Below, piece by piece: positions 1 to 3,728 of a stretch of 3,978 nucleotides of DNA. Under the pieces are notes generated by a model. That model did not search any database, was not told the DNA's origin, and saw nothing but the letters and a program-made list of their open reading frames with translations. The position numbers were made by a program, and so were the translations under genes. Positions within the stretch are counted from its first letter, which is position 1, and the number at the start of each line of letters is the position of its first letter. Source of the DNA: a virus (Duplodnaviria > Heunggongvirae > Uroviricota > Caudoviricetes); IMG/VR virus record IMGVR_UViG_2579778654_000007. One strand, given 5' to 3'.

Positions 1-1164
1 TTACGCCTTCTTTATATCCTCCATAATTCCACAGTGGGACATATTTGGGACATTATCACCAAAAATGTCGTCTATTTTCCTTGCATGCTCTGTCAAATGA
101 TTAGGCGCAAGGTGAGCATACCTACGAACCATTTCTATGGACTCCCATCCGCCCATTTCCTGAAGCACAGATAATGGGACGCCTGACTGGATCAGCCAGC
201 TTGCCCAGGTGTGTCTGAGGTCATGGAAACGGAAATCTTCAATTCCTGCACGACGACAAGCTGATAGCCATGATGTCTTGCTGTCGATGCGCATCTTCCT
301 GACCGCAGGCGTTGATGTTCCATCTGCTCGCTTAGCCGCCTTGGTATGTACAAACACCCATTTGTGATGCTTGCCTATTTGATCACGCAACACTTTACAG
401 GCGGTATCGTTCAGCGCCACACCAATGGCGCGGTTTGATTTGCTCTCTTCTGGATTCACCCAGGCAACTCGTCGCTGCATGTCGATTTGTTGCCATTCCA
501 GATTTATGATGTTCGACTTTCTCAGACCAGTTGCCAGCGCAAACTTGACGACAGATTTCAGTGGTTCGGGGCACTCATCAATAAGGCGTTTTGCTTCCTC
601 CTTTTCCAGCCATCTGACTCGCTTGTTTCTGACCGCTGGTATCTTGATGACAGGCGCTTTTTCCAGCCACTTCCAGTCGCGTTCTGCAGCACGGAGAATG
701 GCCTTTATCATGGCAAGATGCTTTGCCTTTGTCTGAGTTGATACTGGCTTTGGTTCATAAACAGGCGGTTCTTTACCTTTCCTGATGGCGGCCTGAACTT
801 TCTGTTTCCATATTTCTTTCGTCTTTCTGTTATGCATTCTGCTTACAGCAGAGTAAATCTTTGCCTCCGAGATATCTTTAAGCCTTATACCCTCAAAATG
901 TTCAAGCCAGAACTCAATCCGGCTTTTATCTGAATCGAGAGATTTTTTATCAGCTTTTTCCTCAAGCCATCTTAGGCAGGCCTCTTCAAAAGTGACATCA
1001 GGTAAATCCCCTAGCTTTTCTACTCGCCAGAGTTCTGCTTTTCGCTTGTCGTGCAACTCCTGAGCTTGCCGCTTGTCCTTTGTGCCAAGAGATTCCTTAA
1101 TTCGTTTCCCGCCCGGGAGCGAATACGAGGCATACCATATTTCATTTCTGCGGAAGAGTGACAT
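1..1164 (-). CDS. int: Phage tyrosine integrase (site-specific recombinase, lambdoid/Rac IntR-like), 387 aa, complete
   Basis: Full ORF with ATG at 1164..1162 and TAA at 3..1. A GAGGA Shine-Dalgarno lies at 1175..1171, 6 nt upstream of the ATG. The C-terminal catalytic signature of tyrosine recombinases is present: box [15 protein letters not shown] (H-x-x-R), W in GGWESIEM, and the nucleophile Tyr in VRRYAHL (codon at 118..120). A box I-like [14 protein letters not shown] is also present. Resemblance to Rac-type integrases is from memory, unverified. Confidence 0.93.
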
Positions 1165-1391
1165 TTTCTTTCCTCTGTTATGCCATCACCCGCGCTCACC
1201 TGGACAGTATGCAGCGGAGACTGAAGCGCCGCAATGCAAGCTTGCCGTGTTGTGAGGTAAGGAGATTTTGGCTTGGTTGGATCTTTACGTGTTGCCTGTA
1301 GGCGGCCTGTTCGTATCCAGTTGGTGGCGGTTGGTCTGGATATCTTAAGAAACTGACAGGCCTCATCGAGTGTGAGGCTGTATGGCTCCAT
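1020..1391 (-). CDS. xis: Excisionase / AlpA-type HTH recombination directionality factor; the ORF runs 123 aa and its C-terminal part overlaps int
   Basis: ATG at 1391..1389 is preceded by GGTGA (1400..1396) and overlaps the upstream stop as TAATG. The N-terminal approx. 60 aa ([35 protein letters not shown]...) look like a small excisionase-type helix-turn-helix. The gene sits immediately upstream of int, as expected for xis. The ORF-track start at 1475 was rejected (see noticed_but_rejected). The 3' end overlaps int by 145 nt (1020-1164) in another frame. Confidence 0.7.
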
Positions 1392-1696
1392 TATTTCACC
1401 TCTTGCTGTGTCATTGTTGAAAAATGGATACCAGCTCGTTGCTGCCAGACGATCCAACCGAGAGTCATATCCCATGCCATGTATTCGTTATCGCCGTTTT
1501 TTACTCTCCGACGATCTACTAAGTCACCGAAACGCTTTTCCATGAATAATTCATAGGCTTCGCGTTCATCTGGCTCTACTTCCAGAGATACGAGTGCGAT
1601 TTCATAAGCACGGCGCTCAATATCGTCTCGAACCTCTAGGCTGCTGATTCGTTCTTTGATTTCTTTAATCAGTTCTTTATTGGTAAATGTGGTCAT
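1391..1696 (-). CDS. yfdT: Small phage protein of unknown function (YfdT-like), 101 aa
   Basis: ORF with ATG at 1696..1694 and TAA at 1393..1391. The start overlaps the upstream gene's stop (TAATG), with GGAG-like sequence just upstream. Protein is acidic and helical (MTTFTNKELIKEIKERISSLEVRDDIERRAYEIALVSLEVEPDEREAYELF...). The symbol is assigned by synteny and length from memory of the E. coli CPS-53 yfdQRST cluster; treat as tentative. Confidence 0.7.
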   Translation of the reverse strand: MTTFTNKELIKEIKERISSLEVRDDIERRAYEIALVSLEVEPDEREAYELFMEKRFGDLVDRRRVKNGDNEYMAWDMTLGWIVWQQRAGIHFSTMTQQEVK

Positions 1697-2058: not shown

Positions 2059-2585
2059 TTGCGTAACTCCGATAAATCGTTAAAACGTTCCATAAACATC
2101 CCGTAGGCATGACCCGGTGCCAGTGGAATCACGTTGAACATCTCTGTTGCCGGGATGCCTTCCAGTACAGGCCAGAAAGAGCCATCATCAAGCCCGAGAT
2201 CGCGGCGTTCGGTTGCCAGCATGATGAGATCGGCATATTTCACGGGTGTACTCATAACTGGGGGTAACCCGTATTTCTCACGGATTACGGCGTCTATTTT
2301 TTCTTCCATCCGTTTATAGTCAGGAAGAAGGCGTTTCAGTGGTGCGGGAATGTCCTGGCAATACGCTTCTGTTGCATCATGCATTAACGCTTCAAAAGCA
2401 AATTCCTGCGGCACCAGCTGGCTGCAAAGAACCGCATGTTGGGCGACGCTGTAGAAGTGCGAAAGATGACCGGCAAAGCGACAGATATTTGAAAGGGAAA
2501 CCGCGATATCGTTAATATCGATGTCGTCTTTATTTATCTTGTCATAATAAAAATGCTTCCCGGAAAAAGTTTTAATAAATGACAT
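2049..2585 (-). CDS. yfdR: HD-domain metal-dependent phosphohydrolase (5'-deoxynucleotidase-like, YfdR-like), 178 aa, full-length copy
   Basis: ATG at 2585..2583 is preceded by GGAG (GTGGAGAACAAAATG); stop TGA at 2051..2049. HD-superfamily motif residues are visible: [25 protein letters not shown] and downstream acidic residues. The ORF-track version (to 2666) begins at a TTG with no RBS, so the shorter ATG start is preferred. The symbol is from memory of the 178-aa CPS-53 YfdR. Confidence 0.85.
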   Translation of the reverse strand: MSFIKTFSGKHFYYDKINKDDIDINDIAVSLSNICRFAGHLSHFYSVAQHAVLCSQLVPQEFAFEALMHDATEAYCQDIPAPLKRLLPDYKRMEEKIDAVIREKYGLPPVMSTPVKYADLIMLATERRDLGLDDGSFWPVLEGIPATEMFNVIPLAPGHAYGMFMERFNDLSELRKCA

Positions 2586-2678
2586 TTTGTTCTCCACGTA
2601 TATGCGCTGCACCGCGCTGAATTCGGGTAAAAGGAAGCCCTCGCTATCAGGCGATTGTTGAGTCAATTACGTTTCCAT

Positions 2679-2700
2679 AAATGCCCCCGCAGGGGCATTT
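2679..2700. other. Perfect 9-bp inverted repeat (stem-loop) in the YfdQ/HD-gene intergenic region, copy 1
   Basis: aaatgcccc-cgca-ggggcattt: 9-bp arms, 4-nt loop, GC-rich core. It lies 12 nt downstream of the YfdQ-fragment stop on the minus strand and is followed on that strand by TTTAT. It may be a weak intrinsic terminator or attenuator, or an RNA processing or protein-binding hairpin. Confidence 0.4.
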
Positions 2701-2712
2701 GCAGCAATGAAA

Positions 2713-2933
2713 TCAGGCGGTGAAAGTACCAATAAAGGTTTCTACTTTGCTGTCTTTGAATTTCTCAACAAGCAGATCACGAAATTCGTTAGCCATTTCT
2801 TCCTGCACCGCTTCCAGCTGAATAATGCGCAGAACCAGTACAGGACGATCGCCAGTGATAATGCTGAGGCGTAATTTAAACGGACGTTCTTTCAGACCTT
2901 CAAACGGAACGCATTTAAATTCAAATGCCACTG
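2713..2933 (-). pseudogene. Orphan 3' fragment of the YfdQ-like gene created by the duplication (C-terminal 72-73 codons, no native start)
   Basis: Its translation is identical to the last 72 aa of the gene at 3508-3966 (..[71 protein letters not shown]). The ORF-track start is a GTG that encodes an internal Val in the intact gene. No RBS is evident. Confidence 0.65.
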
Positions 2934-3380
2934 CATCTCTGTTGCCGGGATGCCTTCCAGTACAGGCCAGAAAGAGCCATCATCAAGCCCGAGATCGCGG
3001 CGTTCGGTTGCCAGCATGATGAGATCGGCATATTTCACGGGTGTACTCATAACTGGGGGTAACCCGTATTTCTCACGGATTACGGCGTCTATTTTTTCTT
3101 CCATCCGTTTATAGTCAGGAAGAAGGCGTTTCAGTGGTGCGGGAATGTCCTGGCAATACGCTTCTGTTGCATCATGCATTAACGCTTCAAAAGCAAATTC
3201 CTGCGGCACCAGCTGGCTGCAAAGAACCGCATGTTGGGCGACGCTGTAGAAGTGCGAAAGATGACCGGCAAAGCGACAGATATTTGAAAGGGAAACCGCG
3301 ATATCGTTAATCACGATGTCGTTTTTATTTATCTTGTCATAATAAAAATGCTTCCCGGAAAAAGTTTTAATAAATGACAT
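2892..3380 (-). CDS. Truncated, chimeric second copy of the HD-domain phosphohydrolase gene (N-terminal 149 aa of the YfdR-like protein plus a 13-aa out-of-frame tail); possibly a pseudogene
   Basis: ATG at 3380..3378 has the same GGAG RBS as copy 1. The protein matches the full copy through ...GIPATEM except for 2 substitutions (KDDIDIND vs KNDIVIND). At the duplication junction it reads into the YfdQ-like 3' sequence in a different frame ([13 protein letters not shown], stop at 2894..2892). The HD motif residues are retained; the last 29 residues of the full-length protein are lost. Confidence 0.6.
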
Positions 3381-3728
3381 TTTGTTCTCCACGTATATGC
3401 ACTGCACCGCGCTGAATTCTGGTAAAAGGAAGCCCTCACCATCCGGTGATTATTGAGTTAATTACGTTTCCATAAATGCCCCCGCAGGGGCATTTGCAGT
3501 AATGAAATCAGGCGGTGAAAGTACCAATAAAGGTTTCTACTTTGCTGTCTTTGAATTTCTCAACAAGCAGATCACGAAATTCGTTAGCCATTTCTTCCTG
3601 CACCGCTTCCAGCTGAATAATGCGCAGAACCAGTACAGGACGATCGCCAGTGATAATGCTGAGGCGTAATTTAAACGGACGTTCTTTCAGACCTTCAAAC
3701 GGAACGCATTTAAATTCAAATGCCACTG
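2934..3728. repeat. Tandem direct duplication, copy 2 (795 bp)
   Basis: Head-to-tail with copy 1; the junction lies between 2933 and 2934. The unique flanks differ on both sides: ...acgttgaa|catctctg at the left of copy 1, and ...tgccactg|gcataatg at the right of copy 2. Confidence 0.9.
3474..3495. other. Same 9-bp inverted repeat stem-loop, copy 2 (downstream of the intact YfdQ-like stop codon)
   Basis: Identical hairpin sequence at offset +795; it is conserved even though nine nearby intergenic positions differ between the copies. Confidence 0.4.

What the first reader, a model, noticed from the sequence alone, without database searches (positions are those of the whole stretch)
1020..1391. 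Excisionase ORF is unusually long and overlaps the integrase start by 145 nt
Typical Xis/AlpA-type proteins are about 60-75 aa. Here the frame stays open for 123 codons, and the last approx. 48 codons overlap the first 48 codons of int in another frame. Either the C-terminal extension is a real dual-coding overlap constraining both genes, or the functional Xis is shorter in relatives and this allele has lost a stop codon. The int RBS (GAGGA, 1175..1171) lies inside the xis reading frame, so ribosomes translating xis pass over the int initiation site, which would couple or occlude int translation.
Basis: seen in the sequence. Interest (0 to 1): 0.4.

Follow-up and report, generated by a model that had tools for sequence, protein, structure and literature searches.

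The report
P22-type long excisionase overlapping integrase
The long excisionase gene that runs 145 bases into the integrase gene is real, but it is the normal, long-documented layout of phage P22-type integration modules, not a damaged or unusual allele.

Summary
On the minus strand, xis is 1391..1020 (123 codons plus TAG) and int is 1164..1. They share 145 nt, and the int Shine-Dalgarno GAGGA (1175..1171) lies inside xis.

It is not unusual. The protein belongs to the P22 Xis family (P22 Xis is 116 aa and overlaps int by 124 nt in GenBank X04052). In 51 related loci (Xis identity 41-100%) the overlap is always 124 or 145 nt, in the same frame. No relative ends near codon 70.

The 145-nt/123-aa form marks a single integrase clade that sits next to tRNA-Arg(UCU). 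In that clade Int residue 41 is Arg instead of Leu, which removes the P22-type stop embedded in Leu41-Lys42.

Dual coding is real for Xis residues about 77-108. Int synonymous sites are constrained there (Leu26 is CTT in 37/37, Asp30 is GAC in 37/37). The encoded Xis motif ELxxLLxQRT also survives in distant relatives that have no overlapping int. The last roughly 15 residues, including the 7 extra ones here, show little or no constraint.

The function of the tail (contact with Int, or Xis-Xis cooperativity) is inferred, not shown. Overall this is an ordinary, already documented arrangement that annotation pipelines often miss.

The parts
1020..1391 (-). xis coding sequence: 123 codons plus TAG stop at 1022..1020. 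It encodes a P22-family excisionase (recombination directionality factor).
   Evidence: Translation. It is 75% identical to P22 Xis over residues 1-122, E=2e-54. It matches PHROG 2907 'excisionase' with E=1e-45 over residues 1-116.
1397..1402 (-). xis Shine-Dalgarno GAGGTG, 5 nt upstream of the xis ATG at 1391..1389. The ATG overlaps the TAA stop of the upstream yfdT-like ORF as TAATG.
   Evidence: Read from the sequence and from the upstream-context table.
1221..1379 (-). Xis residues 5-57: MerR-like winged helix-turn-helix DNA-binding domain.
   Evidence: Pfam HTH_17 matches residues 6-36. The AF2 model has pLDDT 76-90 here. The best Foldseek PDB hit is Pukovnik Xis 4J2N, with TM 0.73-0.75 normalised to the target. 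A profile search of PDB sequences also hits 4J2N.
1..1164 (-). int coding sequence: 387 aa, an IntD/P22-type tyrosine integrase of the argU-integrating clade.
   Evidence: ORF list and Pfam Phage_integrase. RefSeq names it intD and it lies next to tRNA-Arg in NZ_CP027342.
1171..1175 (-). int Shine-Dalgarno GAGGA, inside xis codons 73-74.
   Evidence: Read from the sequence. A GAGG/AGGAG/AAGGA site occurs at the same place in every related locus.
1020..1164 (-). The 145-nt xis/int overlap: Xis residues 77-123 and Int residues 1-48, with int codon position 3 equal to xis codon position 2.
   Evidence: Coordinates.
1066..1161 (-). The part of the overlap with measurable dual-coding constraint: int codons 2-33, which are Xis residues about 77-109.
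   Evidence: Int pS is reduced here. Synonymous-codon entropy is 0.52 here against 0.84 elsewhere in int, Mann-Whitney p=2.8e-4. Leu26 is CTT in 37/37, Asp30 is GAC in 37/37, Ile22 is ATT in 24/24, and Ser25 is TCT in 33/37.
1074..1103 (-). Xis residues 97-106, [10 protein letters not shown]: the conserved C-terminal motif, lying in the predicted helix 91-104.
   Evidence: L98 and L102 are invariant, also in distant relatives that have no overlapping int (contexts). The helix is predicted only at low confidence, pLDDT about 56-62.
1020..1043 (-). The seven extra codons (Xis 117-123, EKQNSGE) plus TAG that separate the 123-aa class from the 116-aa P22 class. Xis codon 117 (GAA, 1043..1041) occupies the position of the P22-type stop. 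Int codon 41 is CGA (Arg, 1044..1042) here and CTA/CTG/TTA/TTG (Leu) in the 116-aa class.
   Evidence: These residues vary between relatives, apart from the terminal Gly-Glu. The Gly is forced by Int Trp46.

Best explanation
This is the standard int-xis module of P22-like lambdoid phages, in the version that integrates at the tRNA-Arg(UCU) gene argU (DLP12/IntD type).

The Xis protein has four parts:
- an N-terminal MerR-like winged-helix DNA-binding domain (residues about 5-57);
- a poorly conserved, probably disordered linker (about 58-90);
- a conserved short helix motif, ELxxLLxQRT (about 91-108);
- an unconstrained basic tail.

How the overlap works:
- The helix motif and the tail are encoded by the same DNA as the first 48 codons of Int, one base out of register.
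- Both reading frames are under purifying selection through about Int codon 33.
- Beyond that point xis simply reads on until the Int sequence happens to allow a stop.
- In thrW- and tRNA-Lys-type phages the stop is T(A/G)A inside Leu41-Lys/Arg42, giving a 116-aa Xis.
- In the argU clade residue 41 is Arg, so the stop is TAG inside Val/Ile48 and the next codon, giving a 123-aa Xis.

Inferred, not shown:
- The protein acts as the recombination directionality factor. It would bind and bend the attachment-site arm and direct Int towards excision, as reported for P22 Xis.
- The conserved C-terminal helix is the protein-protein contact module, either with the Int arm-binding domain (as for the lambda Xis tail) or between Xis monomers.
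- xis and int each initiate at their own Shine-Dalgarno site.
For: Family and layout:
- The window's Xis is 75% identical to P22 Xis over its full length.
- GenBank X04052 and BK000583 annotate P22 xis as 116 aa with a 124-nt overlap with int.
- APSE-2 has a 145-nt overlap and HK446 a 124-nt overlap.
- All 51 loci have either 124 or 145 nt, in the same frame.
- The stop class correlates 100% with Int residue 41, Leu versus Arg.

Clade structure:
- The 145-nt class forms one clade in the Int trees, but is mixed with the other class in the Xis N-terminal tree.
- All 12 class-145 genomic loci, and L053, lie next to tRNA-Arg(tct). Of 19 class-124 loci scanned, 12 lie next to tRNA-Thr(cgt), 4 next to tRNA-Lys(ctt), and 3 had no tRNA within the fetched flank.

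Dual coding:
- For mid-divergence pairs, int pS is 0.35 in codons 2-41 against 0.57-0.62 downstream.
- pS returns to background from codon 34.
- Synonymous-codon entropy is 0.52 in codons 2-33 against 0.84 elsewhere, p=2.8e-4, with CTT, GAC, ATT and TCT fixed at the sites that encode Xis L102, T106, L98 and L101.
- The same motif is kept in 101-113-aa relatives whose tail is not overlapped by any int ORF.

Structure:
- The winged-helix domain is modelled with confidence, and the top structural hit is a known excisionase.
Against: - No experiment on this protein or on its tail was available. The key P22 Xis paper (Mattis 2008) is not in the held library.
- The C-terminal helix is predicted at low confidence, pLDDT about 56-62.
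- Reduced int synonymous variation near the 5' end could in part reflect constraints of the translation-initiation region rather than Xis. However, it extends to codon 33 and tracks specific Xis residues.
- The comparison sequences are related and mosaic, so the p-value is approximate.
- The distant relatives without an int neighbour leave the partner of the tail open, and weaken the idea that it contacts Int.
Confidence: 0.88

Rival explanations
1. The C-terminal 48 codons are a passive read-through. Only Int is selected in the overlap. The Xis tail has no function, and its apparent conservation is a by-product of Int conservation.
For: - Given the Int protein, the xis frame stays open by chance in about 40% of synonymous resamplings.
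- Several invariant Xis residues are forced by Int: C77 by ATG plus Ser2 TCN, and G86 and G122 by Trp codons.
- From int codon 34 onwards, synonymous variation is at background. For the last roughly 15 Xis residues this rival is probably correct.
Against: - Int synonymous positions are fixed exactly where they specify the Xis motif residues: Leu26 CTT 37/37, Asp30 GAC 37/37, Ile22 ATT 24/24, Ser25 TCT 33/37. Background codon entropy is 0.84.
- The ELxxLLxxRT motif is conserved in relatives with no overlapping int.
- Stops never occur earlier in any of 51 loci.
Confidence: 0.07
2. This allele lost a stop codon. The functional Xis in relatives is about 70 aa, and the extension here is a recent mutation.
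For: - Relative to the P22 class, this lineage lacks the stop at codon 117 because Int codon 41 is CGA rather than CTA/CTG.
- Short (61-65 aa) very distant HTH_17 relatives exist.
Against: - No relative at 41-100% identity ends near codon 70. Full-length homologue sizes cluster at 115/116 and 122/123 aa.
- The 123-aa form is shared by a whole Int clade found in Escherichia, Citrobacter, Erwinia, Pantoea, Serratia and Hamiltonella phage APSE.
- Sequence matching the window's xis/int-overlap stretch (1000-1400) occurs in 2672 of 5426 complete E. coli genomes, and in 1435 of them the best match is at least 99% identical.
Confidence: 0.02
3. The true xis product starts at the upstream ATG at 1475 (151 aa), as annotated for SfV and SfII (147 and 144 aa), so the protein is even longer.
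For: - The frame is open from 1475.
- The SfV and SfII records annotate the longer form.
Against: - The extra 28 codons lie inside the yfdT-like gene and are absent where the upstream gene differs. Upstream identity to most loci is about 26%, yet Xis still starts at the same Met.
- A strong GAGGTG site precedes the ATG at 1391.
- P22 Xis is annotated from the equivalent Met.
Confidence: 0.03

Closest known systems
Phage P22 Xis (116 aa; GenBank X04052 and BK000583; purified and characterised by Mattis, Gumport and Gardner 2008, as cited in PMC7498355 and PMC4111918)
   Same: - 75% identical over the full length.
- Same gene order and same reading-frame relation to int.
- Same Shine-Dalgarno-inside-xis arrangement.
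- Same C-terminal motif.
   Different: - P22 xis stops 21 nt earlier, at a TGA inside Int Leu41-Lys42, giving a 124-nt overlap.
- P22 integrates at thrW, whereas this element sits at argU.
Bacteriophage APSE-2 P40 excisionase / P38 integrase
   Same: - Same 145-nt overlap ending in TAG.
- Same Int Arg41.
- attP corresponds to a tRNA-Arg gene.
- Same Int clade.
   Different: - Xis is only 46% identical.
- The record annotates a start 4 codons further upstream.
Phage lambda Xis (72 aa)
   Same: - Functional analogue: a winged-helix recombination directionality factor encoded just upstream of int and overlapping it.
- Lambda Xis promotes Int binding, forms an Xis/Int interface and bends att DNA (PMC7498355).
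   Different: - No detectable sequence family match: Pfam gives HTH_17 only.
- Lambda Xis is much shorter (72 aa, PMC4111918 table).
- From my own knowledge, not tested here: the lambda overlap is only about 20 nt, and the C-terminal tail of lambda Xis is the part that contacts the Int N-terminal domain.
Mycobacteriophage Pukovnik Xis (PDB 4J2N)
   Same: Best structural and profile match for the N-terminal domain: TM 0.73-0.75 normalised to the target, rmsd 1.9-2.7 A over 53-55 alignment columns.
   Different: Pukovnik Xis is 56-58 aa and consists of the domain only. It has no linker, helix or tail, and sequence identity is about 25%.
E. coli K-12 DLP12 intD and the truncated xisD remnant
   Same: - Same integrase (RefSeq name intD) and same argU location.
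- K-12 matches the window's overlap region at 99% identity.
   Different: - K-12 strains match only the first 260 nt of the 1000-1400 probe, so their xis lacks its 5' part (for L018/L020, and 73).
- The name xisD and its pseudogene status are from my own knowledge.

Membership tests
P22 Xis family (PHROG 2907 excisionase) | Full-length sequence homology to P22 Xis | tested here: met
   tblastn gives 75.4% identity over residues 1-122, E=2e-54. phrog_2907 matches with E=1.1e-45 over residues 1-116 of a 117-position profile.
P22 Xis family (PHROG 2907 excisionase) | N-terminal MerR-like/excisionase winged helix-turn-helix | tested here: met
   Pfam HTH_17 scores 35.5 bits against a cut-off of 27. 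The AF2 model has pLDDT 76-90 for residues 1-60. The top Foldseek hit is Pukovnik Xis. NCBIfam TIGR01764 'excise' scores 27.7 bits, just under its 28.8 cut-off.
P22 Xis family (PHROG 2907 excisionase) | Gene lies directly upstream of a P22-type tyrosine integrase and overlaps it by 124 or 145 nt in the same frame relation | tested here: met
   The window has a 145-nt overlap. All 51 loci have 124 or 145 nt.
P22 Xis family (PHROG 2907 excisionase) | Conserved C-terminal motif ELxxLLxQRT | tested here: met
   The window has [10 protein letters not shown] at residues 97-106. L98 and L102 are invariant.
P22 Xis family (PHROG 2907 excisionase) | Recombination directionality activity: binds direct repeats in the attP arm, bends DNA, stimulates excision | not testable with these tools
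   Reported for P22 Xis (Mattis 2008, as cited in PMC7498355). No experiment exists for this protein. The Xis-binding repeats lie outside the window.
Lambda Xis / AlpA-type short excisionases | Match to Pfam Phage_AlpA (PF05930) or to the lambda excisionase family | tested here: not met
   Only HTH_17 is reported at E<=0.01.
Lambda Xis / AlpA-type short excisionases | Length about 55-80 aa, a single domain | tested here: not met
   The protein is 123 aa, with a 66-residue extension beyond the domain.
Dual-coding (overlapping) gene pair with selection in both frames | Depressed synonymous variation in one frame where the other frame is translated | tested here: met
   Met for int codons 2-33. 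Not detectable for codons 34-48. The exception is Arg47, which is xGA in 14/14 class-145 sequences against 7/23 class-124 sequences.

The most novel reading that the evidence does not exclude
The overlap may act as a linkage device. If the conserved Xis C-terminal helix contacts the Int arm-binding domain, as the lambda Xis tail is reported to do (my own knowledge), then the two interacting surfaces are written in the same nucleotides in two frames. They could then never be separated by the mosaic recombination typical of lambdoid phages.

The window shows such a junction. Its xis 5' part and upstream genes are 89-95% identical to SfV, but identity drops to 62-75% from the int start onwards. 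The Xis N-terminal tree also mixes the two classes, whereas the tail always follows Int.
Probability: 0.2. Interest if true: 0.5.

Novelty: already known. Interest (0 to 1): 0.15.

Why it matters
The main value is practical.

**Annotation**
- Gene callers mishandle this overlap. RefSeq/PGAP labels the identical, intact xis as a 22-codon pseudogene 'missing C-terminus'.
- The PhiR49_1 phage record leaves it unannotated.
- A metagenome gene caller moved an int start 108 nt downstream to reduce the overlap.
- Prophages of this very common type could therefore be scored wrongly as lacking an excisionase. Sequence matching this xis/int overlap stretch occurs in 2672 of 5426 complete E. coli genomes.

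**Biology**
- The module is a clean natural example of two-frame coding, with a measurable boundary at about Int codon 33.
- It offers a built-in natural comparison between Xis length classes, 116 and 123 aa, tied to integration-site clades.

None of this changes the current understanding of site-specific recombination.

Tried and rejected
- **Key P22 paper.** Reading the P22 Xis paper (Mattis 2008) by DOI and by PMC id failed because it is not held. Only citations to it could be used.
- **Internal int promoter.** I looked for a lambda pI-like promoter inside xis. The sigma-70 consensus scan found nothing on the minus strand in 900-1800. A cII/C1 box search (TTGC-N6-TTGC, 1 mismatch) gave 2 hits against 6.7 expected, neither near xis. 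So there is no evidence for or against an internal int promoter.
- **RNA structure at the int start.** I tested whether structure could give translational coupling. The minimum free energy was -31.4 kcal/mol against a shuffle mean of -32.4, z=+0.25. Rejected.
- **Open frame as evidence.** I tested whether the open frame itself is improbable given the Int protein. P is about 0.4, so it is not evidence on its own.
- **Age of the overlap.** I looked up contexts of distant homologues. P0134 again has a 124-nt overlap. P0143, P0138, P0141 and P0136 have no int next to them. The P0127 and P0119 contigs show no int-frame ORF over the tail but are too short to show neighbours. P0192, a 65-aa relative, was uninformative. 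It stays unresolved whether the tail predates the overlap or whether these are orphaned copies.
- **Programmed frameshift.** By eye I considered a frameshift that would fuse Xis to Int. I saw no convincing slippery heptamer in the xis frame. The fused database proteins (P0100, P0107, P0108; P0108 aligned) look like sequencing frameshifts. I did not pursue this.

Full report
**What is in the window**

All genes are on the minus strand.
- int runs 1164..1. It is 387 aa and matches Pfam Phage_integrase with E=5.5e-47.
- xis runs 1391..1020: 123 codons plus TAG.
- Upstream lie a yfdT-like ORF (1696..1391), a DUF551 gene, an HD-domain yfdR-like gene and DUF2303 yfdQ-like genes.
- The 900-1700 stretch is 100% identical to Escherichia phage PhiR49_1. 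The window as a whole is 99.7% identical to prophages found in many E. coli chromosomes. In those chromosomes the integrase is named intD and lies next to a tRNA-Arg gene beside fimZ.

**Check of the observation**

The coordinates are right.
- xis and int share 1020..1164, 145 nt, with int codon position 3 equal to xis codon position 2.
- The int Shine-Dalgarno GAGGA is at 1175..1171, 6 nt before the ATG (read).
- The mechanical ORF reaches an upstream ATG at 1475 (151 aa), but the start at 1391 is the real one. It has its own GAGGTG site. Its ATG overlaps the TAA of the upstream gene as TAATG. Homologues with unrelated upstream genes start at the same Met.
- The open frame alone is not remarkable. 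When the Int protein is kept and synonymous codons are resampled, the xis frame stays open that long in about 40% of trials.

**What it is**

- The protein is a P22-type excisionase. It is 75% identical to P22 Xis over residues 1-122 (E=2e-54).
- It matches PHROG 2907 'excisionase' over the whole 117-position profile.
- GenBank X04052, the 1986 P22 int-xis record, annotates 'xis-polypeptide (aa 1-116)' at 296..646 and int at 523..1686. That is a 124-nt overlap, with the int ribosome site inside xis. BK000583 shows the same layout.
- A review table lists P22 Xis as 116 aa and 14 kDa, beside lambda Xis at 72 aa, L5 at 56, HP1 Cox at 79 and P2 Cox at 91 (PMC4111918).
Pfam finds only HTH_17 here and no AlpA-type match.

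**Where relatives stop**

I collected 51 loci from phage records and from one genome per species. I located xis and int in each.
- Across Xis identities of 41-100%, the overlap is always exactly 124 nt (Xis of 114-117 aa) or exactly 145 nt (Xis of 122/123 aa), in the same frame.
- None stops near codon 70. The protein database shows the same two length classes.
- The class is set by one Int residue. With Leu41 (CTA, CTG, TTA, TTG) followed by Lys/Arg42, the xis frame reads TAA or TGA. With Arg41 the frame reads on to TAG inside Val/Ile48 (GTA/ATA) and the next codon.
- In the window, Int codon 41 is CGA (1044..1042) and xis codon 117 is GAA (1043..1041).
- In Int trees, whether built from residues 60-387 or 1-48, the 145-nt class is one clade nested inside the 124-nt diversity. 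It therefore arose once.
- All 12 class-145 genomic loci, and L053, lie next to tRNA-Arg(tct). Class-124 loci lie next to tRNA-Thr(cgt) or tRNA-Lys(ctt), or had no tRNA within the fetched flank.
- The 123-aa Xis is thus the signature of argU-integrating P22-like modules, not a mutant allele.

**Is the overlap really dual coding?**

Three lines of evidence say yes, but only for part of it.
1. Synonymous differences per site (pS) in int codons 2-41 are lower than downstream. For pairs of moderate divergence the values are 0.35 against 0.57-0.62. For closer pairs they are 0.11 against 0.29-0.37. A sliding profile shows low pS for codons 2-33 and background from codon 34.
2. In Int columns with a conserved amino acid, normalised synonymous-codon entropy is 0.52 for codons 2-33. 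It is 0.84 for codons 34-48 and 0.84 for codons 49-387 (Mann-Whitney p=2.8e-4). The fixed codons are those that spell the Xis motif:
   - Ile22 ATT in 24/24, giving Xis L98;
   - Ser25 TCT in 33/37, giving L101;
   - Leu26 CTT in 37/37, giving L102;
   - Thr28 ACA in 31/37, giving Q104;
   - Asp30 GAC in 37/37, giving T106.
3. A profile search of 1.84 billion representatives found more distant 101-117-aa relatives. One of them, P0134, again overlaps int by exactly 124 nt once the miscalled int start is corrected. Several others (P0143, P0138, P0141, P0136) have no int beside them. P0127 and P0119 have no int-frame ORF over the tail, although their contigs are too short to show neighbours. All of these keep [E/K]-L-x-x-L-L-x-x-R-T-K near their C-terminus, with L98 and L102 invariant. 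These proteins end 3-9 residues after the motif.

Together this shows that Xis residues about 77-108 are a selected protein segment. The last 8 residues in the 116-aa class, or 15 in the 123-aa class, are essentially read-on sequence. Some invariant Xis residues are forced by Int: C77 by ATG plus TCN, and G86 and G122 by Trp codons. E73 coincides with the int Shine-Dalgarno.

**Structure**

- AlphaFold2 with a 36-sequence alignment gives a confident winged-helix domain: strands 5-7, 33-35 and 45-48, helices 8-15, 19-28 and 49-57, pLDDT 76-90.
- Residues 58-90 are low-confidence. A helix is predicted at 91-104 (pLDDT about 56-62). The end of the protein is disordered.
- The domain's best PDB matches are Pukovnik Xis (4J2N), BldC, RacA, MerR N-domains and P2 Cox.

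**How it probably works**

- Shown here: the gene layout, family membership, selection in both frames and separate ribosome sites.
- Inferred from the family: Xis binds and bends the attachment-site arm and directs Int towards excision. These properties are reported for P22 Xis (cited in PMC7498355).
- Inferred by analogy: the conserved C-terminal helix is a protein-contact module. For lambda, Xis promotes Int binding and forms an Xis/Int interface (PMC7498355). That its C-terminal tail makes this contact is my own knowledge.
- The relatives without int argue that the partner could instead be another Xis monomer or DNA. I put Int contact at roughly 45%, Xis-Xis cooperativity at 35% and other explanations at 20%.

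**Translation**

- xis terminates 145 nt downstream of the int start, so termination-reinitiation coupling cannot apply.
- The int start region has no stable structure (z=+0.25), and its Shine-Dalgarno is conserved everywhere.
- Independent initiation, with possible interference from xis-translating ribosomes, is the simplest reading. It was not tested.

**Mosaicism**

- The window's upstream genes and xis codons 1-76 are 89-95% identical to SfV, which belongs to the 124-nt class. Identity falls to 62-75% from the int start onwards.
- Against class-145 relatives, the overlap is more conserved (88-98%) than the rest of int (71-77%).
- The Xis tail therefore travels with int, while the DNA-binding domain recombines separately.

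**Verdict**

The 'unusual' label and the stop-loss idea are not supported. The dual-coding idea is supported for about two thirds of the overlap. The arrangement has been on record for P22 since 1986 and is annotated in APSE-2, SfV, SfII and HK phages. It is already known and of low interest, apart from the annotation pitfall and the tidy natural example of two-frame selection.

Noticed in passing
window 2139-2933 and 2934-3728: A 795-bp direct tandem duplication with 12 mismatches. It covers most of the yfdR-like HD-domain gene, the intergenic hairpin and the 3' part of the yfdQ-like gene.

It creates a chimeric 171-aa ORF (3407..2892) and a 72-aa yfdQ fragment (2931..2713).

Closely matching E. 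coli genomes span 3183 bp here, that is, without the duplication. No complete E. coli genome out of 5426 contains the junction (probe 2874-2993).

The mismatch pattern is mosaic: 9 differences are clustered at 2606-2705 in copy 1, and 3 at 3312-3323 in copy 2. This suggests unequal recombination between diverged alleles, or an assembly artefact.
   Followed up: partly
L053 (NZ_CP027342.1) 2826-2891; L003 (PV340568.1) 1037-1405; L059 1475-1598: The overlap defeats gene callers.
- PGAP annotates the identical, intact xis as a 22-codon pseudogene 'missing C-terminus'.
- The PhiR49_1 record leaves it unannotated.
- In a metagenome contig the int start was called at a TTG 108 nt downstream of the real ATG, which shrinks a 124-nt overlap to 16 nt.
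   Followed up: yes
window 1164 (int start), compared with L001 (SfV): There is a recombination junction at or near the int start. The window is 89-95% identical to SfV upstream of this point (yfdT-like gene and xis codons 1-76), but only 62-75% identical downstream of it.
   Followed up: partly
L001 and L002 (SfV, SfII) xis annotations; window 1392-1475: The SfV and SfII records start xis at an upstream ATG (147 and 144 aa), inside the preceding gene. The window has the same upstream-open frame (151 aa from 1475). The conserved start is the Met at 1391.
   Followed up: yes
window 2676-2700 and 3471-3495: A GC-rich hairpin (AAATGCCCC-GCA-GGGGCATTT) lies in the yfdQ-yfdR intergenic space and is present in both duplicated copies. 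It could be a terminator or a regulatory stem-loop between the two genes.
   Followed up: no
L018 and L020 (E. coli chromosomes); K-12 hits H123 and H124: K-12-like DLP12 prophages keep int and the overlapping xis 3' part at 98-99% identity, but lack xis codons 1-42. They are a truncated xis remnant next to an intact intD.
   Followed up: partly
L009 (Chryseobacterium sp. assembly), L012 (Bacillota MAG), L028 (Micromonospora sp. assembly): Enterobacterial-type int-xis modules, 63-86% identical to the window's Xis and next to enterobacterial-type tRNA genes, appear in assemblies labelled as non-enterobacterial taxa. These are probably contaminated or mislabelled contigs.
   Followed up: no
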